Part shown: in pieces, positions 46,620 through 63,544 of the stretch
Position numbering within the stretch: the stretch's first letter is position 1
How the letters are laid out: each line of letters begins with the position of its first letter
Source of the DNA: an uncultured virus (IMG/VR IMGVR_UViG_3300030380_002570)
Taxonomy: Duplodnaviria; Heunggongvirae; Uroviricota; Caudoviricetes
Reading direction: 5' to 3' (one strand)
IMG/VR virus record: IMGVR_UViG_3300030380_002570
DNA: 64,000 bases
Position numbers and translations under genes: made by a program
Notes under the pieces: generated by a model
What the model was told of the DNA's origin: nothing
The model's input: only the letters and a program-made list of their open reading frames with translations
Database searches by the model: none

Positions 46620-47209
46620 TACGTAAAAAACCCCCCAAGACCTTGAAGTGTAGCTTGTTGAGGAATACGGCTAATCGCAGGACGCGGACTGTACCCGCCC
46701 ATGTTCTGAGTCTGATACGGCAGCGGCATGGGCTGTGCCTGAAACATACCTGATCCACGGTTGCCTAGCGGGTTTTGCATCATGGGCATTGGCCCTTGGT
46801 TTTGCATGGGGGGAACGTTCATGCCGCCACCCTTTGATCCACCCTTGCCCGGAGAGGGTGCGCGGAATGGCATAGGTTGATATCGAGGCTGATTGTAGCC
46901 GCCAAAATTACCTTGATACATTTGACCGTATGTGGGCCGACGGAACGGCTGGGGCTGCTGAAACGCTCGCTGTTGTGGCAACCCTTGATAACCACGGTTA
47001 GCCCTCATATCGTTCATGATTGAGTTATAACCGGAGCCAAAACTAGGTTGCTGCTGCGGTTGTATAGGAAGAATTGCTGGGCCGCTAGTCATAACCGGCT
47101 GTTGTTGTTGTTGCGGTGGTTGATACCTGTTGTTTCCAACTCCTCCGCGTCCGTAAGGGACAGTTTGCGCTCCGCCTTTGCTGCCGCCGCCTGATCCGCC
47201 TCTAGCCAT
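46619..47209 (-). CDS. Gly/Gln/Pro/Met-rich low-complexity protein
   Basis: 196-aa ORF that fills the gap, TAATG-coupled to the tail gene. Confidence 0.6.
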   Translation of the reverse strand: MARGGSGGGSKGGAQTVPYGRGGVGNNRYQPPQQQQQPVMTSGPAILPIQPQQQPSFGSGYNSIMNDMRANRGYQGLPQQRAFQQPQPFRRPTYGQMYQGNFGGYNQPRYQPMPFRAPSPGKGGSKGGGMNVPPMQNQGPMPMMQNPLGNRGSGMFQAQPMPLPYQTQNMGGYSPRPAISRIPQQATLQGLGGFFT

Positions 47210-47212
47210 GAC

Positions 47213-47662
47213 CTATACCTCTTCCCAATTTTGCCCTAAGAACAAGAGAGCCTCTGCCTCTCTGCGCCTTACTAGACCGTCCAATACCTTACCGCCTGCT
47301 TTGTTCCATCGACGTATTTGCGTTGGAACATCGTTATAGTCTTCTTCGTTCAGCCTGATCAGCAAGGTGGACTCTCTCAGGTTAGTTGGCCCTAAGTTGT
47401 ATGTCCATGCTACTAAAGCGTCGAATTGATTCTGCTCTAAAGGACACTGCACGATGTCATTAACGTACCCCTCAAACTCTTCGAGGTCTTCAACGAGCAT
47501 GCTCTCAGCGTCTTCTTGAGAGCAGGTATCGCCCTCTTCTACGCCGCGAGTGTGCCCATAACCAATCGTCCAAACGTTGGCAGAACATTGATATGCCTCA
47601 AGTTCGCATCCCTCAAACTTTTTTATGAGAGCCACGCCCTCTGCGCTTGTCTTCCTATCCAT
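47213..47662 (-). CDS. Endolysin, GH24 lysozyme
   Basis: LIKKFEG...WTIGYGHT...QFDALV...GLVRRR-x-AE. Confidence 0.92.
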   Translation of the reverse strand: MDRKTSAEGVALIKKFEGCELEAYQCSANVWTIGYGHTRGVEEGDTCSQEDAESMLVEDLEEFEGYVNDIVQCPLEQNQFDALVAWTYNLGPTNLRESTLLIRLNEEDYNDVPTQIRRWNKAGGKVLDGLVRRREAEALLFLGQNWEEV

Positions 47663-48161
47663 AAGATCTCTGCACCTTAAAAAACGAGTTTCGTTTCTTT
47701 TGATATATATTCAGTGTACATCTAATTTCGTCAGTCGTATTGCGGTACATGTGCCTCTGGCCCTTGTTTACCCACGACACTAGGCGGTTTGGCTTCCAGA
47801 TAATCTCGTCAAACGAAATTCTGTTAACACTTTCTTCTTTAACAAATGACGTGCCGTCTCCCTGCTCTGGATAAAGGTACACCACAGTGCTGACAATCTT
47901 GTTTGGGTTGTCGGCGTGAATGTTGTACTCGTAACCCGGATAACACTTCACAACTGTTACGTCAAAAAAGCCAACCGGCTCTCCTACTTTTTCTTGATAG
48001 CAGGACTTGATTTGCTGGCTTATGTCATCGCCCAGACTTGCCTCGTGCTTATCGGCACCTTTATGGTCATCGATAAGCCTGTAATCTAGATCGTCCAATT
48101 CGCCCAATAGCTGGCTATACAGGTCTTTATAAAGAAAGTTATCTAGCACCTTCACTGGCAA
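47655..48161 (-). CDS. 2OG-Fe(II) oxygenase
   Basis: H-x-D (HAD), S-x-VVYL, GT, PNR, distal H and R. Confidence 0.75.
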   Translation of the reverse strand: MPVKVLDNFLYKDLYSQLLGELDDLDYRLIDDHKGADKHEASLGDDISQQIKSCYQEKVGEPVGFFDVTVVKCYPGYEYNIHADNPNKIVSTVVYLYPEQGDGTSFVKEESVNRISFDEIIWKPNRLVSWVNKGQRHMYRNTTDEIRCTLNIYQKKRNSFFKVQRSYG

Positions 48162-48855
48162 CGTCCTTAGATTCTCTCAACCTGCACATAAGGTCTTGAT
48201 ATTTAACAGGATCTTGTATTTTTATTAACGCCTTAACGTCTTCTAAAGGCATTGATAGCAATGCAGGCCAGTCCGCACCTGCAAGCCACTTAGCTTTCCG
48301 CCCATGTCTATACGCTTCAAAAGATGCGCCAAAGACTCCCCAGCCTTTCTTCCTAGCATGCGTTATCGTCATGGGGATTGTCATGGCAACGATGCCAAAG
48401 TTTGCAAAGTTGCCGTGCAGAAACCAAAGGAGAACAACTTCGCCAAATGGATTGCGCTCGTAATCTGTAACCGTGTGGGTAAGATCGTGCTGATCTCTGT
48501 ACCACTTGATGTATGTGTTAAACCCTGACTCAGAAGGCTTCTCTCCACGGCCCTTTGTGTCTCCTGCAAACTGCGAGGTAGAGCGATTTGTTTCCACTAG
48601 AAACTTAGAGTACTCGCGCCCTAAGCTGCCAACAGGCATTGCCTTTAAGCTGTCAACGTCATCTAGAACGTGAACCAACGACTCACTGTTCATGATGACT
48701 CTTGAGCCTAACTCTGTATTACGAAACCTTTCGTACTGCTTTCGCACTGAGCCAGACGAAAGCCAGTTAAAAATAACAAAAGCCGCCTCTAGATCGTTGG
48801 GATTTTTGTATAGCCTACGCATGGCGCTAAACACTCTACGCCATCGGGTGTGCAT
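48139..48855 (-). CDS. Coq4-family protein
   Basis: L-x-x-MP-x-GSLG-x-x-Y and HD-x-x-H-x11-E (HDLTHTVTDYERNPFGE); start 48855 or 48906. Confidence 0.8.
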   Translation of the reverse strand: MHTRWRRVFSAMRRLYKNPNDLEAAFVIFNWLSSGSVRKQYERFRNTELGSRVIMNSESLVHVLDDVDSLKAMPVGSLGREYSKFLVETNRSTSQFAGDTKGRGEKPSESGFNTYIKWYRDQHDLTHTVTDYERNPFGEVVLLWFLHGNFANFGIVAMTIPMTITHARKKGWGVFGASFEAYRHGRKAKWLAGADWPALLSMPLEDVKALIKIQDPVKYQDLMCRLRESKDVASEGAR

Positions 48856-48860
48856 CTTTC

Positions 48861-49685
48861 TCAAAGCCAACGTTTGTACCTCTCCACAAGATCTGGTTTG
48901 GCACAACTTACGTCACATGACGCACATGGATCAACAGCATCCCTGTTTCCGTTTATAAGCTCCCTGCTTATCTCTGCAAGCCTTGGGTTGTCGCGCCATT
49001 CTCTGAACAGGTTTACGTCTTTGACGTTGCCAAACCCTATTTGGTGTGACCAGTCGTTGCAACACATCTGCAACTGCCCATCGAAGTTAATGAATATGCC
49101 CCTCATGGGATGAACGCACGGCCCCTTCACAGCAGTGCCGCCAGCTATCAACCCCGCCCTGTGATTGAAAGCATGCTTCCATCTAATCGGTTTACCCTTT
49201 GGGTCAGCATAATCAGGAAGGCGATTTACATCTTCAACTGACCCGCCGTCAGGCTTCCAATAGTCCTCAATCCGCTCACCGTTATTTAGGCGAGGGTATT
49301 TTGCCCTTCTAGCATTGAAGTCTTCTTCCGTCGTGTAGGTGTTCAGCACAAGGTTGTCTAGCTGACGATAGTATTTCCAGTAACGATCAAGCCGCCATCC
49401 GTTTGTCGTTATCTGTGCGCGATATCTTCTAGGCTTACGGAGAAGACGCTGTATTATCTTCTCGAACTTTGGATTGTTGGTGCTTTCCCCTCGGCCTGCC
49501 AGCATGACAGTACCATCAAAGCGCCACTCCTCAATCTGATCCATGATCGAATCAAACATTTCCAGACTCATGTTCTGGTTGTTGTTGGGATATATTGATG
49601 CGTCAGATCGTGGACAGAACGAACAGGTGCGATTGCACAAGTCCGTAATGTTTATGTCAATCTGTAGTATCCCCTCCAGATCCAT
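48861..49685 (-). CDS. Radical SAM protein with SPASM/twitch domain
   Basis: CNRTCSFC, TTNG, C-x-HP...CC-x-DW...C-x-x-C. Confidence 0.9.
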   Translation of the reverse strand: MDLEGILQIDINITDLCNRTCSFCPRSDASIYPNNNQNMSLEMFDSIMDQIEEWRFDGTVMLAGRGESTNNPKFEKIIQRLLRKPRRYRAQITTNGWRLDRYWKYYRQLDNLVLNTYTTEEDFNARRAKYPRLNNGERIEDYWKPDGGSVEDVNRLPDYADPKGKPIRWKHAFNHRAGLIAGGTAVKGPCVHPMRGIFINFDGQLQMCCNDWSHQIGFGNVKDVNLFREWRDNPRLAEISRELINGNRDAVDPCASCDVSCAKPDLVERYKRWL

Positions 49686-50046
49686 CAGTATCTTCCGACA
49701 AGTCTTTGTAGTATTCGATTATAGATAAAACCTGTCGTATATACCTCTTCAGTTCCGCCATGTTGGAGGAGAGGTTCTCATAACCCTTTGGCGACACCCC
49801 ATAATATGCGTTCACTGGGGCGTTACCGTCATTCAGATCTTGCAGGTATTCACTCATCGTGTCTGGCGTTAAGACCTTCCACTCAACAGGTGACATTGAA
49901 ACGGCGTTAGGCAAGGGCGGATGATAAACGGCTGCTGGCTGGACTACCGTAACGACTTCAACCTTCTTTGTCTCAGGAACGTATGGCTCACGACCTATGA
50001 GGCCGCAGCCGCTAAGTAGAAGGATCGGTAATAGCTTCCAGATCAC
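49657..50046 (-). CDS. Outer-membrane spanin (lipoprotein)
   Basis: Lipobox LSGC, Pro-rich stretch, directly downstream of the i-spanin. Confidence 0.7.
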   Translation of the reverse strand: MIWKLLPILLLSGCGLIGREPYVPETKKVEVVTVVQPAAVYHPPLPNAVSMSPVEWKVLTPDTMSEYLQDLNDGNAPVNAYYGVSPKGYENLSSNMAELKRYIRQVLSIIEYYKDLSEDTDGSGGDTTD

Positions 50047-50408
50047 TCAGCACCTCCNNNNNNNNNNTTGATTATGTTCTGTATCAACCCCGGCTTTCGT
50101 AAGGAAAGTACAGTCATGTCGTGCTTGGCGAACTTTTTTCTGATCGACTCCACCTCACGCTGGGACTCTGCATTGTCAATCTGCAACTGGGAAACACGCT
50201 CATACATCTCTTGCTGGCGGCTTTCTTGCTTAATGATCTGGTCGTTAAGCTGCTCTACGCTAGACTCTAGGGCAACTTGATTGTCTGCCGCTACTCTAAG
50301 CTGGGCAGACAGCGACTCTTTCTCTGCCTCTGCCTTGTCAACGTAAAGCTTAAAAGCTCCCCCAGTCAGGGCGAGAGCAACCCCAAGAATTCCAGCTAGC
50401 TGCCACAT
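50043..50408 (-). CDS. Inner-membrane spanin (spans N gap 50058-50067)
   Basis: N-terminal TM helix followed by coiled coil. Confidence 0.65.
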   Translation of the reverse strand: MWQLAGILGVALALTGGAFKLYVDKAEAEKESLSAQLRVAADNQVALESSVEQLNDQIIKQESRQQEMYERVSQLQIDNAESQREVESIRKKFAKHDMTVLSLRKPGLIQNIIXXXXGGAE

Positions 50409-50409
50409 G

Positions 50410-50736
50410 TCACTTCCTATTTGACCATGCTTGTGCGCCAAAGAAAGCGGCAAGTATGCCTGCAACCGATACAAAGTAGACCGCAGCCATATCACCGAGA
50501 ATCGAGGCCGCTTGATTCATGCCAAAGAACTCGCTAACCACGACCAGCGATGGATATAAAAGCATGCCCCATAAAGCAAACCAACTCATGGCTCGTTGTG
50601 CATCGGCGCGTTCATGCTGCAACCGCAACTCTTGTAGCTCTTTACTGGTGTTTAGCTCTTCATCAGTAATGATGCCGTCGCCATCTGCGTCATATTCAGC
50701 GTACTCACTACCTTCTTCTAACCGCTTTGCGTTCAT
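50410..50736 (-). CDS. Holin-like membrane protein with EF-hand-like DADGDG loop
   Basis: Two TM helices; in the lysis cluster. Confidence 0.55.
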   Translation of the reverse strand: MNAKRLEEGSEYAEYDADGDGIITDEELNTSKELQELRLQHERADAQRAMSWFALWGMLLYPSLVVVSEFFGMNQAASILGDMAAVYFVSVAGILAAFFGAQAWSNRK

Positions 50737-50738
50737 AA

Positions 50739-51206
50739 CTACGGCCCAAATGCTTTGATAATTAAGTAAATCATACCAACGGCTACACCACCGCCAACAA
50801 TTAAAGCCACTGCTCCAACTGAAATGTCGTGCATGAGCTTCTCACGCTCTTTGCGCTTCTTGTTCAACATAGCTTGATGAGCCTTCCTGTCCCTCTCTTG
50901 CTGCATGATTGCTTCATCGTAGTCCTTCAACAGCTTAGGGTCTGCGACAAGAAGCAAATCCCTCAAATCTTTTTGATATCGCTCTTGCGACCTACGAAGC
51001 ATTTGCAGCTTTAAGATGTCGTTCTTAGATAATGGCTTGAATGCAGAGGACTTGCGGTCAATCTCAAACGTGTTGAGGGCTTCGCCAAAATCGGACACCA
51101 AAGCCATAGCCTGATCGACATTAGCCTTGCCCTCATTTACATTCTGAATGACCGTATTGATCTGCTGGAGCAACATCCCAGCCGCTGCAACAGACTCAAT
51201 AATCAT
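50739..51206 (-). CDS. Coiled-coil protein with C-terminal TM helix
   Basis: Composition; operon position. Confidence 0.6.
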   Translation of the reverse strand: MIIESVAAAGMLLQQINTVIQNVNEGKANVDQAMALVSDFGEALNTFEIDRKSSAFKPLSKNDILKLQMLRRSQERYQKDLRDLLLVADPKLLKDYDEAIMQQERDRKAHQAMLNKKRKEREKLMHDISVGAVALIVGGGVAVGMIYLIIKAFGP

Positions 51207-51209
51207 GAT

Positions 51210-51398
51210 CTATCCCAAAAGAAACTGGGGCAACGCGACAGCCAGAACAACGGCGGCATACACTCCCCAGATCATTGTTTCAAGGCGGTCGAATCTTTTA
51301 CTCCCAGCGTCAAGACGCTGCTCTATACCTTGATATCGCACGGCACACTCACGCTCATGGGCATCAATTTTTGCTATAGCCTTCTCTGTTGGAGTCAT
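51210..51398 (-). CDS. XhlA-like small membrane protein
   Basis: HERECAVRY...RLE plus C-terminal TM helix. Confidence 0.6.
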   Translation of the reverse strand: MTPTEKAIAKIDAHERECAVRYQGIEQRLDAGSKRFDRLETMIWGVYAAVVLAVALPQFLLG

Positions 51399-51583
51399 CT
51401 GAGTCTACCTTTTCTCATGTCTTGTCTAGCCTCTTGAAGCATTTCTGAAACAGCATGCCACCAGATCACACTGACCTTTCCCGTAACTACGACGGCAACG
51501 AAACCTTGGTCTTGAGCTTCTTGAATAGCTCTTCTAACGGCCTCAGTAATATCGCCAATGTCACAATCAGTGTTATCTGACAT
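51395..51583 (-). CDS. Hypothetical protein
   Basis: Coupled ORF. Confidence 0.45.
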   Translation of the reverse strand: MSDNTDCDIGDITEAVRRAIQEAQDQGFVAVVVTGKVSVIWWHAVSEMLQEARQDMRKGRLR

Positions 51584-51791
51584 AAGAATACCAGTACCTC
51601 AAGCCTCGAATCAGAAGCCTCTTCTCGCCAGAAGTCTGACTCTTCTTTGGTCACTTGCCTTTTTTCTTTGGAAGGGTTTTCTCTAGCCTGTCAGCTTGCC
51701 CTGCGTGTAGCTTTGATGCTTTACGTAGCTCGGCTATCATTTTGCGCTTTTGCGCNNNNNNNNNNTGCTGTCAGTTCCGCCATAAGTTTTC

Positions 51792-51998
51792 CTAAACGCT
51801 GATGTTAATTCTTCGGGTAGGAGCTAATTGCTCTACAGTAATTCTGCCATCTTTCATGGTGTACACGGTGGGCATTATTGTCTGTATAGCTTCTCGCACT
51901 AGCTCGCCGTCACCGCCTGTTCTCAGAACCTCTTGCTTCTGGACAGCAACCTGCTTCCAGCTAACCTGAGACATCCCACCAACAGCGCCAACGTCCAT
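51792..51998 (-). CDS. Hypothetical protein
   Basis: Coupled to the upstream small ORF. Confidence 0.55.
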   Translation of the reverse strand: MDVGAVGGMSQVSWKQVAVQKQEVLRTGGDGELVREAIQTIMPTVYTMKDGRITVEQLAPTRRINISV

Positions 51999-52162
51999 CA
52001 GTCTTTAGCCTTGCCAATGTTTAGAGCCAAGATGTCCACCAACTTGTAGAGCTTACCTATCATCTCGTCATCTCTTGGCGTATCTGTGGCTGCTGCAATC
52101 AGTGACGCAACGGTAACAATACCCGTAACGATCACAATTACATTGCCTATAAAGTCCAACAT
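51998..52162 (-). CDS. Small holin-like protein, 54 aa (MLDFIGNVIVIVTGIVTVASLIAAATDTPRDD...)
   Basis: Translated by hand; RBS aggagg; TM helix and T-x-TP-x-DD motif. Confidence 0.6.
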   Translation of the reverse strand: MLDFIGNVIVIVTGIVTVASLIAAATDTPRDDEMIGKLYKLVDILALNIGKAKD

Positions 52163-52171
52163 AAAAGCCTC

Positions 52172-52393
52172 CTATGTAACTGGTCTCAAATCTGGAATGC
52201 TTTCGGTGTTCATCGAACTCCAATCCTTCACGCCATGAGCTATCTCATCCGCAAGCGTGGCACACAAACGCTCATACGCCGTCTGTTGTAAGGTGGCGTT
52301 GCAGTGCTCTACCAGCAGGTTCTGTAATTTTTCTGGCAGATCTACGACCTTGTACTCAGTGCCATCCACGTCAATTGTTTCAGGTATATACAT
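52172..52393 (-). CDS. Hypothetical protein (IDVDGTEY motif)
   Basis: RBS aagga. Confidence 0.55.
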   Translation of the reverse strand: MYIPETIDVDGTEYKVVDLPEKLQNLLVEHCNATLQQTAYERLCATLADEIAHGVKDWSSMNTESIPDLRPVT

Positions 52394-52402
52394 CGCTTGT
52401 CC

Positions 52403-52981
52403 TTAATCGTCATCAACAACAATGTTTGCGTTGCTGTTCATCGTGAGTGTTCTTACATTACGACCAGAGTAGACTGTGTCCGAATAATCTTCTAGTGTCT
52501 CTGATATCCCCCAGTCACCACTTACATCTTTAATTCGCGCGTTACCGTCATCAGTGAAGTCTTTGAGACGATTACCTTTTTCAGAAATATGACTCTGGAT
52601 GCCAGTAACCCCCTGTTCCTTCAGCCATGTATGAAAGCTAAGAACATTGGCTGTGTCATAAACATAGCTTCTGCTGCCATTAGCGTCATCCGCCCCAAGC
52701 CAGACCCACATATCTAACTGGCTGTTAGCCACTGTTCCAAAAATCATGGTGAGCAACAGACCGTCATCCTCTGTCTTAAAGCAGAAAGCGTTATCTTTTG
52801 AGATAAAGTGTTCGCAAATACTACGAATATGCGCCTTTTGGTCATCGTATGTTGTCAGTTCTCTCTCAGCAAAAGGGAACGTACCTGTATCTGGGTCTGT
52901 CATAATGGCTAACGAACCATCAAACACACGGTCAAACTCAGCATCTACGATGGAGAATATGCGTGTACGAACTAATGCCAT
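52403..52981 (-). CDS. Hypothetical protein
   Basis: 192 aa, TAATG-coupled. Confidence 0.6.
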   Translation of the reverse strand: MALVRTRIFSIVDAEFDRVFDGSLAIMTDPDTGTFPFAERELTTYDDQKAHIRSICEHFISKDNAFCFKTEDDGLLLTMIFGTVANSQLDMWVWLGADDANGSRSYVYDTANVLSFHTWLKEQGVTGIQSHISEKGNRLKDFTDDGNARIKDVSGDWGISETLEDYSDTVYSGRNVRTLTMNSNANIVVDDD

Positions 52982-53679
52982 TAGTTACTCTCCGCTAAAG
53001 CTTTGATAAATTTTGATTGGCTCTTGCATCGACCTATATACGCTTCAGCTTGAGCCTTCTTCTCTGCGTTGAGATTGCCCACAAACGGCGTAACACGATC
53101 TAATGCGTATGCGTATCTAGCGGCACCATAGAGGCCGTGGGTCAATACGCCGACATAGTTCAACACACTTGCTTGATGCCCAAGAACGCCGTATCTAGCG
53201 AGTTCTGCGGCAGGTAATACCCTTTCTGCAACACGATCCACTCTATGGTTCATGTAGCGCGGCATCTTCAGGATTTTTTTATCGCGCAAGGCACCCGCAT
53301 CCTGTTCAGGAGCGGCGTCCCACATGTCAGGATTGACTATGATTACATCTAAGTCCCATGTCCCGTGAGTGATGTTCGCACCGGCTAAGTTGTATATCTG
53401 GTCGTGATTTGGGTTATCGACATAAACCCCGCGCTTAGATAGAGATATGTGGAATGCAGAAAGCTTTTCATCTGGTGGCAAGTCTTCTAGCTTTATATCA
53501 AGAACGACACCGCCTCGGACGCACATAGTGATGCCGTCTGCATTATCAAGTGCCGCAGCAATAACACCAGAAGCCCCCTTCTTGATTAGGACAGGCTCCC
53601 AATCAGGCATGTTCGCCTTGATTGAGTCTACTGTGATTGCGCTCCAAGCGTTCTCACGGACTAGTATTTTTGGGTTCAA
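52981..53679 (-). CDS. Putative GT-A (GT8-like) glycosyltransferase, diverged
   Basis: SIKAN-x-P N-terminus and DLDVIIVNPDMW resembling the GT8 NSGV-x-x-x-N-x-x-x-W segment; weak. Confidence 0.4.
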   Translation of the reverse strand: MNPKILVRENAWSAITVDSIKANMPDWEPVLIKKGASGVIAAALDNADGITMCVRGGVVLDIKLEDLPPDEKLSAFHISLSKRGVYVDNPNHDQIYNLAGANITHGTWDLDVIIVNPDMWDAAPEQDAGALRDKKILKMPRYMNHRVDRVAERVLPAAELARYGVLGHQASVLNYVGVLTHGLYGAARYAYALDRVTPFVGNLNAEKKAQAEAYIGRCKSQSKFIKALAESN

Positions 53680-54547
53680 TGTGAGGAACCTCCGAAAACT
53701 GGTTGAAGAAAGACGCTATGCGATCTAGCGCATCATCGCTTTTGCCGTAAATTATACCGCTAAAAGGACTGTCAAATACCCGTATTAGGTTATCTCTGTA
53801 GTTGCCACCGCTTAGTATCGCCTTGTATATGGGATCGTATGTGCCATGACTTTTACATTTGAGGTCTGTAAATAGATGAAAGCCCTTGCCTGCGGCTATT
53901 GCCGCTATGCCCATTTCGCTATTCCAACAACAGCCCACAATGTCTGCGGCCTGCATAAGCTCATGACCAGACTCTTTCTTCTCTAAAACGTTGTCTTCGC
54001 CATAGAGGTTTTTTAGATGAACCACCAAAGATACGCTGGAAATAGGGTGAGGCTTTATAACAGCGCCTTGATCAACGGCGGCTTTTGCTTTATCCCAATC
54101 AAAGACTTTCTTTATGCAGTTAGTTCCGGGCAGGAATATGACGAACTTGTGCTTTGCGCTTGAGCGTCTGAGCCTGTACTTGTCCGCAATACCCTTGCCC
54201 ATCTGATCAACTAGCTTTTCGCCATATCCGGTTGGGTCAAGCTTTACACTTGCATACATAGCCATTTCAGCGAAATGCTGATTGGCTGGCTTTATGTACA
54301 AGTAGTCTTCAAGCGCATCGGTGTAAACGTAGCCGTGTATTTCTTTGTTACCCCCCATTGAATACCAAAGATCGTACTCAAGGTTGGTGTTATACAGGCC
54401 GCGCTTGGGCAGCAAACTAGCTAGATTTAAGGAATTGCACTTAGGGTTTCTAAGAATGTTGCCGCTCTTGAAGAAGTGCGCCCCAGCATTGCCAAGGCGA
54501 TCATCAATAGCTAACTGGTCAATCGGCATCTTTAGCCCCTGCACCAT
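53654..54547 (-). CDS. Capsule-polysaccharide-synthesis (KpsC/KpsS-like) glycosyltransferase
   Basis: IKPHP and L-x-x-x-AD-x-V-x-x-x-NS-x-x-G-x-x-A-x-x-x-GK motifs; start may be 54529. Confidence 0.65.
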   Translation of the reverse strand: MVQGLKMPIDQLAIDDRLGNAGAHFFKSGNILRNPKCNSLNLASLLPKRGLYNTNLEYDLWYSMGGNKEIHGYVYTDALEDYLYIKPANQHFAEMAMYASVKLDPTGYGEKLVDQMGKGIADKYRLRRSSAKHKFVIFLPGTNCIKKVFDWDKAKAAVDQGAVIKPHPISSVSLVVHLKNLYGEDNVLEKKESGHELMQAADIVGCCWNSEMGIAAIAAGKGFHLFTDLKCKSHGTYDPIYKAILSGGNYRDNLIRVFDSPFSGIIYGKSDDALDRIASFFNQFSEVPHIEPKNTSP

Positions 54548-54683
54548 CCTTGAGGTCAGATATCATCTTTTCTAACTCATCGAAACGATCTTCTGAGTCA
54601 CCGAAATGCTCAAGGACTATGTCGAGCATTGTTTCTATGCGCTTGTTTATAGCCTTTAACTCGTCCTCTAGTCTTCCGTCCAT
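54519..54683 (-). CDS. Small coiled-coil protein, 54 aa (MDGRLEDELKAINKRIETML...)
   Basis: Translated by hand; bridges the Thr-rich gene and the GT gene. Confidence 0.5.
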   Translation of the reverse strand: MDGRLEDELKAINKRIETMLDIVLEHFGDSEDRFDELEKMISDLKDGAGAKDAD

Positions 54684-55714
54684 TGCGATCCGTCGTGATA
54701 TCTAGCGTTATGTGCGCTACCAGACGTAACCTCAGTGTCATTACCAGTAGCAGTTAATCGCTCAAATATAACAGTATTGGTATTGAAAGTCGTCGTTGTA
54801 TTGAATGTCGTTGTAGTGTTAAACGCTGTGTTGAACGTCGTTGTAGTTGACTGACTAGTGCCTGTCGCTCTTGTCGTGTTAAACGAAGTGGTCGTGGACT
54901 GGCTTGTGCCCCTAGAGGTGGTGGTGTTAAACGCAGTCGAGGTGCTTTTACTCGTTCCAGTCGATCTGGTCGTGTTGAAGCTGGTTGTTGTACTTTTGCT
55001 TGTGCCCCTCGAAGTCGTGGTATTGAAAGCGGTGTTAAACGACGTGCTTGTGTTCTTGCTTGTACCCCTGCTCGTGTTAAACGAAGTAGAGAACGATGTA
55101 GAGAACGACGTATTGAACGAGGTATTTCTACTTGTGTTGCGGCTAGTCTCCGATGGCTTGCCACCTACGGTAGTAAAAAACGATGTAGAGAAACTTGTGC
55201 TTCTACTCGTAGACCTTGAAGTGTTTCTTGATGTGTTTCTACTAGTTCCAAACGTTGTGTTGAAGCTGGTTGATGTATTTCTGCTTGTCCCTCTACTCGT
55301 AGCTGTGGCGAAAGACGTATTGAACGATGTAGTCGTGTTCTTACTGGTGCCAAACGTAGTCGTAGTATTGAACGACGTAGTGGTATTCCTGCTAGTACCC
55401 GTCGCAAATGCCGTGTTGAACGACGTTGTAGTGCTCTTACTAGTACCAAACGTAGTCGTAGTATTGAACGATGTAGTCGTTGAGTTACTGGTGGACTGAC
55501 TCGTTTCAGTTGCACGAGTCGTAGCCGTAGAGCGCGTTGTCGCGGTAGCTCTGGTCGTGTTGTATATAGCATTCCAGACCGTAGCCAATGTACCGCCGTT
55601 ATTAACGACGATAAAGTTCACCTGATGAAGCGTGTTGGCTGTAGCACGGACAGCAATCTGCGAGTCTGTGTCTAGCTCCTTCAGCGTACCATTGTCGTTA
55701 ATAAATATAGCCAC
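54668..55714 (-). CDS. Thr/Ser-rich repetitive fibre-like protein with mirror-complementary halves
   Basis: T-x-T repeats; central VGGKP turn; located in the tail fibre region. Confidence 0.75.
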   Translation of the reverse strand: MAIFINDNGTLKELDTDSQIAVRATANTLHQVNFIVVNNGGTLATVWNAIYNTTRATATTRSTATTRATETSQSTSNSTTTSFNTTTTFGTSKSTTTSFNTAFATGTSRNTTTSFNTTTTFGTSKNTTTSFNTSFATATSRGTSRNTSTSFNTTFGTSRNTSRNTSRSTSRSTSFSTSFFTTVGGKPSETSRNTSRNTSFNTSFSTSFSTSFNTSRGTSKNTSTSFNTAFNTTTSRGTSKSTTTSFNTTRSTGTSKSTSTAFNTTTSRGTSQSTTTSFNTTRATGTSQSTTTTFNTAFNTTTTFNTTTTFNTNTVIFERLTATGNDTEVTSGSAHNARYHDGSQWTED

Positions 55715-55723
55715 TATTCGTTC

Positions 55724-56377
55724 CTAGCTAATGACGTAAAACACATGCCCGTCTGGGAACCCAGAGGCAGATGTCGGATTCGAGCTAACAATGGACTGTG
55801 TACCTACAGTTTTGCCATTAGACACAATATCAGTAAATGTACCAGCCGCTGCTGTACTGCCGCCTATGACCACGTTGTCAATCGTTCCGCCGTTGATATC
55901 TGCGGTGGTCAGAGTTGCGCTTGCAATCGTAGCACTTGCAACATCGGCTAACTCTAGGTCTATCAGAGCATCTGTAACCGCTGCACCAGCGCCAGCACCA
56001 TCTAGAAAAACAACTTTAACGTTACCGTTACCAATTGTTACTGTAGCGCCAGATCCTTGCTTGATGACGATGTTTTGCGACCCACTTGTTGCATTCTCTA
56101 TGATGTGAACACGGGTCATTGTATTCGGCCCAATCGTGATAGTGCATTCCGAATCTAAGGTCCCCGTGTACTTAATGTACATTGCACGAGCAGGGTCAGT
56201 TGAACCATCCGCTACCGTAGACGTATGAGTGTCTGCATTGGTTGTAATTGCTTCAGTTCCAAAGCCTAAAGCCTCACCTATCAACTCAAGGTTAGTATTC
56301 GTACTGGTGCCCCATGTGCCTGACTCATCGCCATTGGCGATTTCTTTTAAGCGCAGGTCATTAACGTAAGTTGCCAT
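55724..56377 (-). CDS. Tail fibre proximal/adaptor protein
   Basis: G-x-x-SGTWG-x-x-TN-x-NL motif; INGGTID repeat. Confidence 0.65.
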   Translation of the reverse strand: MATYVNDLRLKEIANGDESGTWGTSTNTNLELIGEALGFGTEAITTNADTHTSTVADGSTDPARAMYIKYTGTLDSECTITIGPNTMTRVHIIENATSGSQNIVIKQGSGATVTIGNGNVKVVFLDGAGAGAAVTDALIDLELADVASATIASATLTTADINGGTIDNVVIGGSTAAAGTFTDIVSNGKTVGTQSIVSSNPTSASGFPDGHVFYVIS

Positions 56378-57265
56378 CTAAGCTACCTCTGTCCAGTTTG
56401 GTGTCTGACTTGTATCAACAAGCCCCCATATGTTTATAGCAGTAACCGCCCCAGTTGCGCCAACTCCAGTGAGACTAAACACCGCTGTACCCGTCACCGT
56501 CACGTCGCCAGCACTACCCGTACCCGCTACACCCGTAAGAGTAGCAGAAGCTGCCGCAGTCGTTGTAACAGTAGTTACACCCCCTGTTGCAGAAACCCCT
56601 GTTACAGGCGCTGTAGCGCCCGCTGCGACGGCTGGGGCGGTAACCTGCCCTGTACTAGAAACCCCTATGATCGCAGCGTCTGGATCAGCGTCAACCGTTC
56701 CAGCGGCACCTGTGCCCACAACACCCGTAACAGGAGCGTTGATGCTTAGAAGGACCGTAGGCGAACCTAGCGTTCCTGTTCCTTCAACACCTGTAACCGG
56801 CAGTGTGTTGTTACTTATCGTGGATACTGTGCCTACAGATCCAGTTCCTTCAACACCTGAAGGTGCGCCGGTTGCACCACCAGTTGCGGTGCCCGTGTTT
56901 GATGACCCAGTGCCTTCTACCCCAGTAACCCCTTGAACAATGCTCAAAGAGAAAGAGGGCGTCCCTATCTGCCCTGTACCCTCAACACCTGTAACGGGGA
57001 GGGTATTGTTCGATATTGTGGATACAGAGCCGGTAGAACCAGTGGCTGATACTCCCGTGACAGGGACAGTTGCTCCTAACGCAACAAAGACAGACCCTAC
57101 AGATGCCGTCCCTTCAACACCCGTTACAGCTAAGGTGTTGTTTGTAACAGTGGTGGCGGCAGTGACTGCGCCTGTAGCAGACACACCTGTGACTTCGACG
57201 GGCAGGGGTGTTCCCCACGCGCCTTCGCCCCAGCCACCTCTGGCCCAGCCGTTAATTGCCGCCAT
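56378..57265 (-). CDS. Repetitive fibre-like virion protein (VTGV-x-x-TG repeats)
   Basis: About ten ~24-aa repeats; WG-x-x-x-WG N-terminus. Confidence 0.7.
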   Translation of the reverse strand: MAAINGWARGGWGEGAWGTPLPVEVTGVSATGAVTAATTVTNNTLAVTGVEGTASVGSVFVALGATVPVTGVSATGSTGSVSTISNNTLPVTGVEGTGQIGTPSFSLSIVQGVTGVEGTGSSNTGTATGGATGAPSGVEGTGSVGTVSTISNNTLPVTGVEGTGTLGSPTVLLSINAPVTGVVGTGAAGTVDADPDAAIIGVSSTGQVTAPAVAAGATAPVTGVSATGGVTTVTTTAAASATLTGVAGTGSAGDVTVTGTAVFSLTGVGATGAVTAINIWGLVDTSQTPNWTEVA

Positions 57266-58002: not shown

Positions 58003-58638
58003 TTAACCCCTTGCAATGTCGTATCGGTATTGATCTTGAGCGCCATATCCTTCACCCAAAGCTTTTAAGGATGCCACTGCCTGTGAAAAGCGTTGCTCGT
58101 ATTGAGCCACCTCTTCTGGAACTTTTAAAAACGTAGCAGCTTCCGTCAATGTGCCGTACAGCAAAGCGTCCGGCGCGTTATCGGATAGCCACGTAGTATC
58201 TGACCCGGAAGTTGTAGTTAAAGATGCGGGTCGATATTGATAGTGAAGCTCAAACGCATAGTCCGCAGCGGGAGTTGGAGACAAGATAAAAGTGCTTTCA
58301 TTAAACAAAGCATAATACCGCGTTTCTCCCGTCGTAGACGCATTAGGGGTAAACGCCCGAATAAACGAAGCTTGTTTTAACAAAGGGTAGCTGTATTCAC
58401 CACTGACAATCAAAGCCAAGCTGTATGAGGCAAGAAAATCAGAAGGTGTGGATAGGTACGGGTTCCCGCTAGAAGCTTGCCCCGTAACATTTTTGCGGAA
58501 CACTGGCAAAGTGACGTTTTTAAGTATTCGCTCTTCCGCCTCTTTTATAAAGGTATCCAGTTGCGAAACAAACGTAGACTCAGCGGTTTCGCAATAGTCT
58601 TGAACCGCCGATTTTAAGGTTGCTAGAGTAAAACTCAT
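58003..58638 (-). CDS. Head-tail adaptor-like, homolog of 729-1373
   Basis: Shared motifs. Confidence 0.65.
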   Translation of the reverse strand: MSFTLATLKSAVQDYCETAESTFVSQLDTFIKEAEERILKNVTLPVFRKNVTGQASSGNPYLSTPSDFLASYSLALIVSGEYSYPLLKQASFIRAFTPNASTTGETRYYALFNESTFILSPTPAADYAFELHYQYRPASLTTTSGSDTTWLSDNAPDALLYGTLTEAATFLKVPEEVAQYEQRFSQAVASLKALGEGYGAQDQYRYDIARG

Positions 58639-58939: not shown

Positions 58940-59824
58940 TTACACCCCGTACTTGTACGCAGGCGGACTTATTTTAAAAGAAGCCCTGTCACGATCTTCT
59001 TCCATGGCTCTAATCATTTCCTCTTCGTAAACACTTTTAAGCATGCCCATCATCTGCGGATTTTTTTTCATAGATAAGTAGTACGCCAGCCCTGCTGCCA
59101 AACAAGGGTAAAAGCGAAAGGGAACATCTACCGTATTTGTGAAGTTATCTGCGTCTTCAATTCGAGTAAGACGATTAAACTTAACTATATCCGTGTTGTT
59201 GTCTGGAACCGGCCAGATCTTTAAAACAGGGGTAATTTGACGGTCCAAGAAAAATTGACTTGGTCTGCCCGTTTGGGTTTTGGTAGGTATGTTTAAAAAC
59301 TCAGATCGACTTAATCTGTCTATTTCAAAGTCTGTGCCATCGCGAGTCACAACAGTAGACAGAATGTCTATAGTTGACTGCACATCGCTAAGATCTTGCG
59401 CAGCGGATACCGTAGTAGTCGCCCCGCTAGTGCCGCCAGTTATTGTCTCTCCGCTAGAAAAAGTCCCTGACGGGACCGTAGTTGCCACAGAAGTTGCTGT
59501 CGGCTTGCTAGTAATAGACGCCGTGGCTGAACTGCTTCCACCAGTGATTACCTCTCCAACAGAAAAACTTGCAGAAGATGCAACAGATAAAGTTAAAGTT
59601 CCGGCAGGATATTCACTGATGCCCGAAGCCAACGTGATAGAGGTTTGATCTATCGTCCACTGATTCAAGCCTCGGTTAGCCCAATCAGCAAACAATAAAT
59701 TTAGCGACCGTTTTGCAGTTTTTAGATCATAGCCCGTGCGAAGCTCTAAGCCACATCGCTCAAATGCTTCTTCAATGTATTCAGCTACATCAATCTCAAA
59801 ATTTTTGCTGTTACTCGTTGTCAT
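58940..59824 (-). CDS. Neck/adaptor protein, homolog of 1684-2376 with ~70-aa insertion
   Basis: EEAFERCG, WANRGLN; insert with two F-x-x-GE-x-ITGG repeats. Confidence 0.7.
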   Translation of the reverse strand: MTTSNSKNFEIDVAEYIEEAFERCGLELRTGYDLKTAKRSLNLLFADWANRGLNQWTIDQTSITLASGISEYPAGTLTLSVASSASFSVGEVITGGSSSATASITSKPTATSVATTVPSGTFSSGETITGGTSGATTTVSAAQDLSDVQSTIDILSTVVTRDGTDFEIDRLSRSEFLNIPTKTQTGRPSQFFLDRQITPVLKIWPVPDNNTDIVKFNRLTRIEDADNFTNTVDVPFRFYPCLAAGLAYYLSMKKNPQMMGMLKSVYEEEMIRAMEEDRDRASFKISPPAYKYGV

Positions 59825-60488
59825 TGTATAGGTTATCGAATACACGGTTCACATCAAGAACATAGTCTAAATCAGACTTCGAGTAATGTATGTGAGCCGA
59901 AGGCTTAAAATCTGGAGCGCCTGTACCCGTTTCAAACCACGCGGGATGTGTTACACGAACCCGGTTGTTTGGTAATGCAACGATGTTACCTGTCCACTCC
60001 CCCGCATCTAATAGTTGCAGCACATGACTTTGCTTGTGTTGTGCTGGGTCGTCTGCAATTTCACTTTCAGTGTAGTCTACTGTGAAAAGGTACTTGGCGG
60101 GATACATTTCTCCGCCGATTTTTGCCATCCAAGGACATGGCGTTGCACGATCTAAAACATAAACAGCATGGTGGTGTGAAGAGCAATCCCAAGGTTGCGC
60201 GTCATGGACTGCCATAGGTTCCGGCCATTCCTCTAAAGGAACGTCTGCAACCAAAGCCGTTATGGGCATTCTTGCCCACATCGCTCCGCCATGAACGGTA
60301 TCTTCCTCTTCACCCTCTGCTTCAATACCCGTAAAAATCATCTGAAAACTCAGACATCTACACGGCATTGTAGTCACGGCTACGGCCATGGCGTGCAAAA
60401 ACTCGCCATGGTAAGCCTCGTGGTTATGAGTAAATTCTTTTCTTACCCAGCACTTAAAATGCGGGATGTTGGACTGTAGGTAAGCCAT
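59811..60488 (-). CDS. Homolog of 10756-11445
   Basis: MAYLQSNIP...ALPNNRVRVTHPAWFETG. Confidence 0.8.
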   Translation of the reverse strand: MAYLQSNIPHFKCWVRKEFTHNHEAYHGEFLHAMAVAVTTMPCRCLSFQMIFTGIEAEGEEEDTVHGGAMWARMPITALVADVPLEEWPEPMAVHDAQPWDCSSHHHAVYVLDRATPCPWMAKIGGEMYPAKYLFTVDYTESEIADDPAQHKQSHVLQLLDAGEWTGNIVALPNNRVRVTHPAWFETGTGAPDFKPSAHIHYSKSDLDYVLDVNRVFDNLYNDNE

Positions 60489-62638: not shown

Positions 62639-63544
62639 TTATGCACCGGGAGTGCCGATAACGGATCTCCAATCGGAAACACCGAACGAGTATCGCTCTC
62701 GCGCTTTAAAGCGCATGTTTCCAGTGTCAAAGTCACCTTCCATCGCAGTTTTGATGGCGGTTCTTTGAAACAGTTTGAAGCCATTAGGGGCATCGGTTTT
62801 GACAAAGAACGCATCAGTGTCTGTCAGGAAGTGGTTTACCACTGCTCCCTCTGGAAGCATACCCATAGACTTGAGTGCGTTAGTGTCATTGTCGGCAGTG
62901 CCGGGACGCAGGTTAGAGTTCAACACTCGTTCTGCGATAAATTGCAGTTCCTTTGGAATGATTAGTTTCATTCCGCGAACAGCAATCTTCAGGCCACGCT
63001 CGTCGGTAAAGCCTGCGATATCAATCAACATCTGCTCAAGAGACGTTTCGTTGAGATCAGAGGCAGTTGCCAGTACGTTCGACTGATTACCCGAAATAGA
63101 CGGGTGATCGGCTGCGCACAAGGCCGAGCCGTCTCCGATAGGGTTAGACGTGCTGAACGCATTGTTCAGTACGCTTGCCGCTCGGATTTGCTTGGTTTGT
63201 GACATGGAACGTGCCAGCGCACGAGTGTAGCGTGCCGCCAACTTGTCATAGAGATTATCTTCGATAGCTTCCTCGGTGATCGAAAAAGCCAGCGCGATTG
63301 TCTCGTGCGAGTATCGTGCAGTGAAAGTTTCCTGCGCTTGGTCGAACGAGATAGCGCCGCCTTCTGATTTCACAGGGGCAGTACCGAAGCCAGAGAGCAT
63401 TACTTCTTCTTCAAACGCTCGGTCCGAAGACTCCGTGTCAAAGATTTCTGCGTGCTCTTGGTCGTAACGATCATATTCTAAGCCGAACAAAGCATTTAGG
63501 CCGGGTTCAAGCTCTTTCGCCAATTGGGCGCGTGTAATAGCCAT
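62639..63544 (-). CDS. Major capsid protein, copy B
   Basis: Colinear diverged homolog of 4268-5176. Confidence 0.9.
   Translation of the reverse strand: MAITRAQLAKELEPGLNALFGLEYDRYDQEHAEIFDTESSDRAFEEEVMLSGFGTAPVKSEGGAISFDQAQETFTARYSHETIALAFSITEEAIEDNLYDKLAARYTRALARSMSQTKQIRAASVLNNAFSTSNPIGDGSALCAADHPSISGNQSNVLATASDLNETSLEQMLIDIAGFTDERGLKIAVRGMKLIIPKELQFIAERVLNSNLRPGTADNDTNALKSMGMLPEGAVVNHFLTDTDAFFVKTDAPNGFKLFQRTAIKTAMEGDFDTGNMRFKARERYSFGVSDWRSVIGTPGA

What the first reader, a model, noticed from the sequence alone, without database searches (positions are those of the whole stretch)
54668..55714. Mirror-complementary Thr/Ser protein: predicted very long beta-hairpin fibre
Seen: reading outward from the central TTVGGKPSE turn, the large residues in the left arm run F,F,R,R,R,R,F,F,R,R,F,F,K,F,F,R,F,F,K,F,F and in the right arm R,R,F,F,F,F,R,K,F,F,R,K,F,R,K,F,R,Q,F,R,Q. 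Every Phe faces Arg/Lys/Gln over more than 100 residues per arm, on a T-x-T background. There are also more than 20 N-x-T/S sequons. Inference: an antiparallel beta-ribbon zipped by cross-strand cation-pi pairs with a flat Thr face, which could be a glycosylation scaffold, an adhesion whisker or an ice-binding-like surface.
Basis: partly seen in the sequence, partly recalled or inferred. Interest (0 to 1): 0.72.

Follow-up and report, generated by a model that had tools for sequence, protein, structure and literature searches.

The report
Fold-back threonine-rich phage fibre stalk
A marine phage gene next to its tail-fibre gene encodes a threonine-rich protein whose two halves match residue by residue in reverse order, so the chain most likely folds back on itself into a very long, thin beta-hairpin rod of a kind not yet described in print.

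Summary
The 348-aa ORF (54668-55714, minus strand) has two ~127-residue arms that pair in one exact antiparallel register (i + j = 371). That register gives 24 Phe-Arg/Lys/Gln pairs and no Phe-Phe or cation-cation pair; the next best register gives 9.

In 46 of 53 distinct family proteins (281-1071 aa), the best aromatic-cation register equals the sum of two conserved anchor-motif positions, so the arms stay equal in length.

Most relatives carry a 60-90-residue Tyr/Trp/Gly-rich domain at the centre. The window's protein has only a 6-residue turn there. An AlphaFold2 model of a short relative places its strands in the register predicted from sequence.

The gene lies in a conserved module: tail-fibre gene with an invariant C-terminal motif, then the hairpin gene, then two conserved genes.

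The oligomeric state is inferred only: one face is 95% small residues. Virion location is also only inferred. The readings as a flat Thr face, a glycan scaffold or an ice binder are unsupported.

The scan has already noted this design in eight other phage genomes. Four literature searches found no description.

The parts
54668..55714 (-). Whole ORF, 348 aa plus stop (stop at 54668-54670), GTG start
   Evidence: Identical protein on two viral contigs, L001 and L002.
55562..55714 (-). N-terminal base domain, residues 1-51, ending in the anchor motif WNAIY
   Evidence: Conserved across the family (alignment A1). Beta strands with pLDDT about 70 in the otherwise poor monomer model.
55169..55561 (-). 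Outgoing (left) arm, residues 52-182
   Evidence: Pairs with residues 189-319 in register i+j=371. Contains a 48-nt (16-aa) tandem repeat.
55151..55168 (-). Central turn, residues 183-188 (VGGKPS); register centre lies between G185 and K186
   Evidence: Tip-bearing relatives have a 60-90-residue Tyr/Trp/Gly-rich domain at this place.
54758..55150 (-). Returning (right) arm, residues 189-319
54671..54757 (-). C-terminal base segment, residues 320-348; the second anchor motif IFERLT (residues 316-321) spans the boundary with the right arm
   Evidence: The most conserved part of the family: invariant R319, T321, A322, T323, E328, V329, N336, R338, D341, G342, W345, E347.
55724..56377 (-). Upstream gene, 217 aa. 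The N-terminal ~126-146 residues resemble annotated tail-fibre/tail proteins. The last ~27 residues (nt 55727-55807) are the conserved motif GTQS(V/I)V..(A/N)PTSASGF..GHV(W/F)YV(V/I)S.
   Evidence: 9 phage records match, best Roseobacter phage CRP-902 'tail fiber domain-containing protein' at 51% over residues 2-146; all 27 distinct upstream ORFs (86-1056 aa) end in the motif.
53654..54547 (-). Conserved downstream gene 1, 297 aa (phrog_26179, function unknown)
   Evidence: A homolog follows the hairpin gene in 31 of 34 loci with a complete hairpin gene; the other 3 contigs end within 200 nt.
52981..53679 (-). Conserved downstream gene 2, 232 aa, no family
   Evidence: A homolog is present in 26 of the 34 loci, at 31-100% identity. 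No Pfam, PHROG or PDB match.

Best explanation
The gene encodes a structural protein of a marine podophage. The phage's terminase is closest to those of Pelagibacter phages HTVC027P and HTVC023P.

Shown from sequence: the chain runs out along residues 52-182, turns at VGGKPS, and returns along residues 189-319, so that residue i lies opposite residue 371-i.

Inferred: this forms one very long two-stranded antiparallel beta ribbon of about 127 residues per arm, or roughly 38-42 nm at 3.0-3.3 A per residue. The N-terminal 51 residues and the C-terminal ~30 residues would meet at its foot to form a small base domain.

The register is set by a pairing code on one face: Thr opposite Thr alternates with Phe opposite Arg/Lys/Gln. 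The other face carries only small residues (Ser-Asn, Ser-Ser, Gly/Ala-Thr).

In most relatives the same stalk carries a globular Tyr/Trp/Gly-rich domain at its far end, and stalk length varies from about 65 to 445 residues per arm. I therefore read the hairpin as a variable-length spacer of a host-recognition fibre. The window's protein is a tip-less, strongly cationic variant (arms net +21).

Inferred, about 70%: the protein belongs to the tail-fibre module and docks through its base, possibly onto the invariant C-terminal tail of the upstream tail-fibre protein.

Inferred, about 55%: the small-residue face is buried by bundling of several hairpins. A trimer forming a six-stranded needle is the natural guess.
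For: Evidence in the window protein:
- The exact register gives 24 pairs with no like-with-like pair, far above shuffles.
- There is no DNA palindrome.

Evidence for paired arm lengths in relatives:
- In 24 of 28 homologs, and in 46 of 53 distinct complete family proteins of 281-1071 aa, the best aromatic-(R/K/Q/H) register equals the sum of the two anchor-motif positions. Four more tie.
- The 1071-aa member has 85 such pairs, 2 aromatic-aromatic and 0 cation-cation. The 803-aa members have 61.
- A composition-only segmentation of the central domain, blind to the register, gives left and right arm lengths with r = 0.968 over 53 proteins (range 65-445).

Family-wide pair statistics over 6,472 arm pairs:
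- aromatic-cation 846 observed against 94 expected;
- aromatic-aromatic 10 against 66;
- cation-cation 2 against 34;
- T-T 2068 against 1120;
- N-S 457 against 155.
- 1214 of 1296 aromatic-containing pairs lie on one parity.

A second, shorter family (150-220 aa, different ends) matches the profile. It puts its best register 8-10 residues beyond length+1 in 21 of 25 proteins.

AlphaFold2 model of one of these, P0059: the tip has pLDDT 76-94. Strands 41-58/134-151 and 11-19/173-181 both sum to 192, the register found from sequence.

Two more tip-less variants (368 and 324 aa) keep 25 and 19 pairs.

Context:
- The gene follows SU10-type adaptor genes and a tail-fibre-like gene.
- The four-gene order is conserved in 31 of 34 loci.
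- All 27 distinct upstream ORFs share the C-terminal motif.

Face B is 95% G/A/S/T/N/D family-wide. Face A is 55% Thr plus 36% large residues.
Against: - The AlphaFold2 monomer model of the window protein itself is poor (mean pLDDT 39.9, arms under 50, few strands), so there is no confident model of this protein.
- In the P0059 model the strands far from the tip have pLDDT under 50. I saw strand ranges only, not contacts.
- The 53 family proteins include close relatives and are not independent events.
- In the short family, the pair count exceeds all 300 shuffles in only 12 of 25 proteins.
- Three of the 53 proteins place the best register elsewhere: P0022 by 1, L018 by 20, L041 by 139.
- No proteomic or imaging evidence places the protein in a virion.
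- No cultured phage in the 50,697-record collection has a detectable homolog.
- The oligomeric state is pure inference.
- A two-stranded ribbon 40 nm long without a hydrophobic core has no solved precedent.
Confidence: 0.65

Rival explanations
1. The chain folds back in the same way, but the ribbon stands alone as a monomer. It would be a single-layer, two-stranded beta ribbon with no buried face, stabilised only by cross-strand Thr-Thr, Phe-cation and Ser-Asn pairs.
For: All the register evidence needs only one chain. The pairing code is entirely intramolecular. The AlphaFold2 monomer model of P0059 already forms the mirrored strands. Thr has high beta propensity (general knowledge).
Against: Large residues are almost excluded from face B (4.8% family-wide; 3 of 252 positions in this protein). 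That is hard to explain if this face were free in solvent. Known phage fibres are trimers (statement in PMC12143355, abstract seen and passages).
Confidence: 0.2
2. The arms pair between chains rather than within one. The left arm of one subunit would zip to the right arm of another, giving a domain-swapped dimer or an open-ended polymer.
For: The rule i + j = constant is equally satisfied by an antiparallel pairing between two identical chains.
Against: A six-residue turn here, and a compact domain in relatives, join the two arm ends directly. The N- and C-terminal conserved segments would be separated by the full rod length in a swapped dimer. The monomer model of P0059 pairs the arms within the chain next to a confident tip.
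Confidence: 0.07
3. An ordinary parallel trimeric fibre (triple beta-helix or beta-solenoid) built from Thr-rich direct repeats, with the mirror pattern a by-product of repeat composition.
For: The arms contain direct repeats of 48 nt. One-armed proteins carry the same kind of repeat ahead of a Peptidase_S74 chaperone domain (P0034) or ahead of C-terminal regions that I read as Hint-like. That Hint reading is by eye only; two searches found no Pfam match for P0030 and P0032.
Against: Only one register stands out in an aperiodic spacing pattern (24 against 9). That register coincides with the anchor sum in 46 of 53 proteins, and arm lengths track each other from 65 to 445 residues. A parallel or solenoid fold does not require equal arms or a centre.
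Confidence: 0.04
4. A disordered, mucin-like Thr/Ser linker, possibly O-glycosylated by a phage enzyme, acting as a flexible tether or glycan scaffold.
For: 59% Thr+Ser between the anchors. Poor AlphaFold2 confidence. The conserved downstream gene is feature-similar (score 0.95) to a bacterial cluster in which 13% of members carry Capsule_synth, and 1 of 16 homologs hits that family at E = 0.1.
Against: Disorder does not explain the aromatic-cation complementarity, the strict two-residue face alternation or the matched arm lengths. The glycosyltransferase signal is below any threshold. Profile and sequence searches against the PDB found nothing.
Confidence: 0.04

Closest known systems
Needle (domains D10-D11) of the phage T4 long-tail-fibre tip protein gp37
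   Same: Out-and-back topology. D10 is made of residues 811-881 and 1010-1026, so the chain goes to the distal tip and returns, forming a thin trimeric rod that presents a receptor-binding tip (passages of PMC6957217 seen). It is also a distal element of a tail fibre.
   Different: - gp37 is held by seven iron ions bound by His from three chains (same passages). This protein has 3 His, none in the arms.
- No sequence or Pfam relation was found.
- The arms here are 127 residues, up to 445 in relatives, vary in length, and follow a Thr/aromatic-cation code.
- Trimer formation is not shown here.
- gp37 needs chaperones gp38 and gp57A.
T2/S16-type gp38 adhesin (receptor-recognising protein at a fibre tip)
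   Same: A separate small protein encoded after the fibre gene, proposed here to dock on the fibre's C-terminal end. The tip domain of the relative P0059 gave its best viral fold hits to an unnamed protein and to a 'Receptor-recognising protein Gp38 domain-containing protein' of Rhizobium phage RL2RES (E 0.04-0.065, ~105 columns, TM 0.31-0.32).
   Different: The fold hits are above E 0.001 and concern a domain that the window's protein lacks. No sequence similarity was found. Docking was not shown.
Single-layer beta-sheet proteins (Borrelia OspA central sheet; staphylococcal SasG rods). Recalled from memory, not from any call.
   Same: Long, thin beta structures without a conventional hydrophobic core, stabilised by cross-strand side-chain contacts.
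   Different: Those have three or more strands, short strands and capping globular domains. None is a two-stranded hairpin of 100+ residues per strand, and none shows a mirror pairing code.
Earlier findings of this scan: mirror-coded Thr-rich fold-back fibres in T4-like and T5-like phages (e1-5729476, e1-6134061, e1-6063792 and five others)
   Same: The same rule (Thr opposite Thr, aromatic opposite Lys/Arg/Gln), matched arms and mirrored length changes.
   Different: Those are 900-2300-residue proteins, or extensions of baseplate proteins, of large myo- and siphophages. This one is a 348-aa stand-alone protein of an HTVC023P-like podophage, without a tip domain, and only 3 of 180 short words are shared. 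The earlier notes are unchecked AI notes.

Membership tests
Fold-back hairpin-stalk family defined here (alignment A1) | N-terminal anchor W[NDQSA]A[IV][YFS] and C-terminal anchor [VIL][FY][EV]R[LV]T, followed by the conserved tail ..HN.R(Y/H)(W/H)DG.QWTE. | tested here: met
   WNAIY at residues 47-51 and IFERLT at 316-321; tail ..HNARYHDGSQWTED.
Fold-back hairpin-stalk family defined here (alignment A1) | Best aromatic-cation register equals the sum of the anchor positions (equal arms) | tested here: met
   371 = 371 for this protein; 46 of 53 family proteins meet it.
Fold-back hairpin-stalk family defined here (alignment A1) | Globular Tyr/Trp/Gly-rich domain with GG(Y/F/W)xY(Q/Y)RG at the centre | tested here: not met
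   The centre is the turn VGGKPS. The same holds for two other members, of 368 and 324 aa. This is a tip-less subgroup.
T4 gp37 needle-type fibre tip | Out-and-back chain topology with N- and C-proximal segments side by side | tested here: met
   Register and anchor evidence; strand ranges in the model of a relative.
T4 gp37 needle-type fibre tip | His-x-His motifs binding iron along the needle axis | tested here: not met
   His occurs only at residues 30, 335 and 340, none in the arms.
T4 gp37 needle-type fibre tip | Homotrimer forming a six-stranded rod | not testable with these tools
The 348-aa chain in three copies exceeds that tool's 1000-residue limit.
T4 gp37 needle-type fibre tip | Sequence homology to gp37 or any curated fibre family | tested here: not met
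   0 Pfam families and 0 PHROGs for this protein; no tblastn match in 50,697 phage records.
Fibres matured by a C-terminal Peptidase_S74 intramolecular chaperone | PF13884 domain at the C-terminus | tested here: not met
   Absent here. Present in the one-armed repeat protein P0034 (E 2.1e-6).
Beta-solenoid antifreeze / ice-binding proteins with T-x-T ranks | Direct-repeat coils that align T-x-T motifs into a flat, Thr-only face | tested here: inconclusive
   Thr shares its face with Phe and Arg in alternating rungs, and the arms are mirror-related, not stacked coils. No structural or functional test was possible.

The most novel reading that the evidence does not exclude
The protein would be an analogue of a nucleic-acid stem-loop. 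A residue pairing code (Thr with Thr, aromatic with Arg/Lys/His/Gln, Ser with Asn) would on its own specify the register of a free-standing two-stranded beta ribbon 40 to about 150 nm long, with no hydrophobic core, metal or chaperone domain. The ribbon's length would evolve by compensating duplications in both arms. This would be a new, designable principle for building rigid protein rods of chosen length.
Probability: 0.25. Interest if true: 0.92.

Novelty: new variant of a known kind. Interest (0 to 1): 0.78.

Why it matters
If the fold-back reading is right, abundant marine phages build host-recognition fibres on a principle absent from the solved fibre structures: a sequence-encoded antiparallel zipper whose length changes in steps of matched repeats. 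The family spans 65-445 residues per arm.

This would explain a large class of unannotated Thr-rich 'low-complexity' phage ORFs. It would also give a simple sequence rule for finding them and for predicting stalk length, and so how far the receptor-binding tip stands from the virion. And it would offer protein designers a core-less, length-programmable beta rod.

The tip-less, highly cationic form in this window asks a separate question: what does a stalk do without its adhesin?

The stretch is near-identical in 16 marine metagenome runs; the 20 runs holding any part of it come from 15 studies. It is therefore not a rare oddity.

Tried and rejected
- AlphaFold2 monomer of the window protein with 28 aligned sequences gave mean pLDDT 39.9, which is unusable.
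- Complex prediction gave no answer (best score 0.30, mark 0.32, controls not run). The job held residues 1-70 and 301-348 of the hairpin protein plus the last 60 residues of the upstream protein. It is neither support nor evidence against docking.
- Fold searches with the P0059 model found little. Foldseek against the PDB gave nothing at E <= 0.001. BFVD gave only weak hits. VIA-align over 48,161 chains reached a best Z of 3.9. The tip fold stays unassigned.
- Pfam and PHROGs gave no hit for the hairpin protein. tblastn against cultured phages gave none. The protein atlas gave a best score of 0.82, for unnamed viral clusters. Cluster look-up returned no names.
- The two downstream genes gave nothing in PDB sequence and profile searches. 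Pfam at E <= 1 gave nothing for either. The Capsule_synth lead stayed sub-threshold.
- Profile comparison with HTVC023P was not significant: gp70 N-terminus E 0.019 with probability 2.4%; gp69 C-terminus E 0.067 over 12 columns.
- A first crude arm-length walker broke off early in many proteins (r = 0.23). I replaced it with the maximal-segment method.
- Pairwise alignment of the three tip-less variants could not place indels reliably in the repeats.
- RNA libraries hold only short pieces (share 0.05-0.12), and these may be DNA carry-over. Expression is not shown.
- The window's own assembly is not held. The nearest record, G001, carries the same gene.
- In Stenotrophomonas phage DLP6, the homolog of the downstream gene lies about 10 kb, across the record ends, from the baseplate genes. 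No adjacency could be claimed.
- A DNA-palindrome origin of the mirror was rejected.
Full report
WHAT IS THERE

The finding's coordinates are exactly one ORF on the minus strand: 54668-55714, 348 aa, with a GTG start nine bases after the stop of the upstream gene. The protein is 32% Thr and 17% Ser.

The window is a phage genome. It holds:
- a large terminase (12158-13663), a portal (7947-10394) and a major head protein (62639-63544);
- two SU10-type adaptor genes (58003-58638 and 58940-59845);
- a primase/helicase, an ejection protein and a 2736-aa giant protein.

The terminase is closest to those of Pelagibacter phage HTVC027P (55%), phage DSL-LC04 and HTVC023P. The window's own assembly is not held. 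The same protein, letter for letter, lies on two viral contigs.

THE OBSERVATION

Every one of the 21 listed pairs, and three more toward the base, satisfies i + j = 371, although spacings switch irregularly between 4 and 6 residues.

- At that register there are 24 Phe-(Arg/Lys/Gln) pairs and no Phe-Phe or cation-cation pair. The next best register has 9.
- 20,000 composition shuffles never exceeded 12 at their own best register.
- 20,000 shuffles of identities among the existing sites never exceeded 21.
- 24 of the 26 arm Phe face R/K/Q. The exceptions are F294-N77 and F180-S191.
- The arms hold no DNA inverted repeat, so the mirror is a protein property.

All large residues fall on one parity. 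That face is T 74, F 25, R 17, K 5, Q 3, arranged as Thr-Thr rungs (37) alternating with Phe-cation rungs. The other face is S 53, N 25, T 23, A 12, G 10, mostly Ser-Asn (21) and Ser-Ser (11) rungs. So there is no separate Thr face.

The 24 N-x-S/T sequons are only mildly more than composition gives (17.6 +/- 2.8).

THE DECISIVE TEST: RELATIVES

A word-indexed search found 37 relatives, none named. A profile search of 1.84 billion representatives found 95. A scan of viral contigs found 41 loci.

The family shares a ~50-residue N-terminal domain and a very conserved C-terminal tail. Its total length runs from 281 to 1071 aa. Most members carry a 60-90-residue Tyr/Trp/Gly-rich domain exactly where this protein has its turn. 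Two further tip-less members (368 and 324 aa) exist.

I took two conserved motifs as anchors, one at the end of the N-domain and one at the start of the C-tail. I then asked whether the register that maximises aromatic-cation pairs equals the sum of their positions.
- It does in 24 of 28 proteins and in 46 of 53 distinct complete proteins.
- Four more tie with a register one repeat period away.
- Three differ: P0022 by 1, L018 by 20 and L041 by 139.
- The 1071-aa member has 85 aromatic-cation pairs, 2 aromatic-aromatic and 0 cation-cation.

A segmentation of the central domain by composition alone gives left and right arm lengths that correlate at r = 0.968 over a range of 65-445 residues. A cruder first attempt failed.

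Pooled over 6,472 arm pairs, the counts are:
- aromatic-cation 846 against 94 expected;
- aromatic-aromatic 10 against 66;
- cation-cation 2 against 34;
- Thr-Thr 2068 against 1120;
- Asn-Ser 457 against 155;
- His-Tyr 105 against 4.

The 53 proteins include close relatives, so these are not 53 independent events. The length range and the several sub-lineages still make a shared accident implausible.

Indels are mirrored across the centre, which a solenoid or a disordered linker does not require.

A SECOND FAMILY AND A MODEL

The profile also recovered proteins of 150-220 aa with different ends (N-terminal MSxGF.., C-terminal ..TSFYA) but the same arm-tip-arm plan.
- In 21 of 25 of them the best register lies 8-10 beyond length+1. 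That means the C-terminus pairs with residue ~9-11 whatever the length.
- Only 12 of the 25 exceed all 300 shuffles in pair count.

AlphaFold2 on one of them (P0059, 27 sequences) gave a confident tip, with pLDDT 76-94 over residues 60-135. It also gave four long strands, 41-58 with 134-151 and 11-19 with 173-181. Both pairs sum to 192, the register derived from sequence beforehand. Confidence falls below 50 away from the tip, and I saw strand ranges, not contacts.

The tip has no clear known fold. The best viral hits, weak, include a 'Receptor-recognising protein Gp38 domain' protein.

The monomer model of the window protein itself was useless (pLDDT 39.9).

CONTEXT

The upstream gene (55724-56377) has an N-terminal ~126-146 residues like those of proteins annotated as tail fibre or tail protein. 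These are in Roseobacter phages CRP-902/901, HTVC023P/027P and Planktothrix/Synechococcus phages. In CRP-902 that protein follows the adaptor genes, as here.

Across the related loci the gene order is fixed: a fibre gene, then the hairpin gene, then a homolog of 53654-54547, then a homolog of 52981-53679.
- The first downstream homolog is present in 31 of 34 loci with a complete hairpin gene. The other three contigs end within 200 nt.
- The second is present in 26 of the 34.

The upstream fibre genes are otherwise unrelated to each other. They are 86-1056 aa long with at least four kinds of N-terminus. Yet all 27 distinct ones end in the same ~27-residue motif..GTQSVVTTAPTSASGF.NGHVWYVVS.

A conserved tail on variable fibres, next to a conserved base on variable stalks, suggests that the two dock. 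I could not support this: the one complex job returned no answer.

In HTVC023P the gene at the hairpin's position encodes a Gly-rich protein instead. In Caulobacter phage Quill_5.2 the order is tail fibre, then a Thr/Tyr-rich 184-aa protein, then a homolog of the first downstream gene.

The function of the two downstream genes is unknown. A Capsule_synth-like hint is sub-threshold.

HOW IT MOST LIKELY WORKS

Shown: two arms of equal length whose residues are complementary in antiparallel register, kept so through large length changes.

Inferred:
- The chain folds back into a two-stranded beta ribbon. Cross-strand neighbours in an antiparallel pair point to the same face (established geometry), which fits the strict two-residue alternation.
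- One face carries the register-setting code. Each Phe is covered by an Arg/Lys/Gln and flanked by Thr-Thr rungs.
- The other face admits almost only small residues (95% G/A/S/T/N/D family-wide). This argues that it is packed against something. That is most simply other copies, as in a trimeric six-stranded needle, but I have no direct evidence.
- At about 3.0-3.3 A per residue the stalk would be 38-42 nm here, and up to ~145 nm in the longest relative (the rise per residue is general knowledge).
- In relatives the stalk presents a distal domain.
- Here the distal domain is missing and the arms carry net charge +21 with almost no acidic residues. The tip-less form may act as a cationic whisker for first contact with an anionic cell surface, or may have another role. 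This is speculation.

COMPARISON WITH WHAT IS KNOWN

The nearest solved thing is the T4 gp37 needle. Its chain also goes out to a tip and back: D10 is made of residues 811-881 plus 1010-1026, and the needle is a trimer with seven iron ions (passages of PMC6957217). The present protein shares the topology and the place in a fibre. It has no His in the arms, no sequence relation, far longer and variable arms, and a different stabilising principle.

A recent atlas of fibre folds (PMC12143355; passages seen) does not contain the words hairpin or threonine.

Four full-text searches found no description of such a fibre.

The scan itself has noted the same design eight times in other phage genomes. 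These are unchecked AI notes that I saw only after my own analysis, and they agree with it. This case adds the smallest, stand-alone, tip-less form, a podophage host-recognition module, and a family series from 281 to 1071 aa.

VERDICT

The hairpin reading is well supported by sequence evidence but not yet by any confident structure of this protein. The readings as a Thr face, a glycan scaffold or an ice binder are unsupported or untested. Oligomeric state, virion location and docking partner are open.

Noticed in passing
window 56378-57265 (-): A 295-aa Gly/Thr/Val-rich protein with about nine tandem units of the type 'PVTGVEGTGS.G..'. It lies between a phrog_644 gene and the tail-fibre-like gene and is 91-96% conserved in the closest loci. 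It has no Pfam or PHROG family.
   Followed up: partly
window 46619-52981 (-): A block of non-structural genes sits between the fibre module and the next virion gene. It holds a radical SAM/SPASM enzyme (48861-49685), a Coq4-like protein (48139-48906), a weak 2OG-Fe(II) oxygenase match (47655-48161), a phage lysozyme (47213-47662) and many small ORFs.
   Followed up: partly
window 29671-37881 (-): A 2736-aa protein with LPD38 and DUF7178 domains, downstream of an ejection-protein-like gene.
   Followed up: no
proteins P0030, P0031, P0032, P0036, P0034: One-armed proteins carry the same Thr-rich aromatic/cation repeats. Each is followed either by a C-terminal region that looks Hint/intein-like by eye (no Pfam match for P0030 and P0032) or by a Peptidase_S74 chaperone domain (P0034). 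How a single arm is paired in these is unexplained.
   Followed up: partly
window 55237-55431, seen in contigs of run X1: DNA contigs of one marine metagenome join 55382 to 55431 (skipping 48 nt, one 16-aa repeat unit) and 55237 to 55332 (skipping 94 nt) inside the left arm. These are either natural repeat-number variants or assembly collapse of repeats. No matching change in the right arm was seen.
   Followed up: no
L048:5677-6603 (Pelagibacter phage HTVC023P gp70) and L047:4160-4714 (Caulobacter phage Quill_5.2 gp041): At the position of the hairpin gene, HTVC023P has a 308-aa Gly-rich protein. The Caulobacter T7-like phage has a 184-aa Thr/Tyr-rich protein followed by a homolog of window gene 53654-54547. 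Different low-complexity proteins appear to be interchangeable after the fibre gene.
   Followed up: partly
window 54858-55499 (+), 54754-55164 (-), 55165-55572 (-): Long open frames overlap the gene on the opposite strand (213 aa) and in another frame of the same strand (136 and 135 aa). They are by-products of the biased codon content and have no relatives of their own.
   Followed up: no
L046 (Vibrio phage KVP40, KVP40.0256) and L050 (Stenotrophomonas phage DLP6, AAY80_002): Homologs of window gene 53654-54547 occur in large T4-like phages. In KVP40 the homolog lies beside QueC-like and radical SAM genes rather than fibre genes. The family may be an enzyme rather than a structural partner.
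   Followed up: partly
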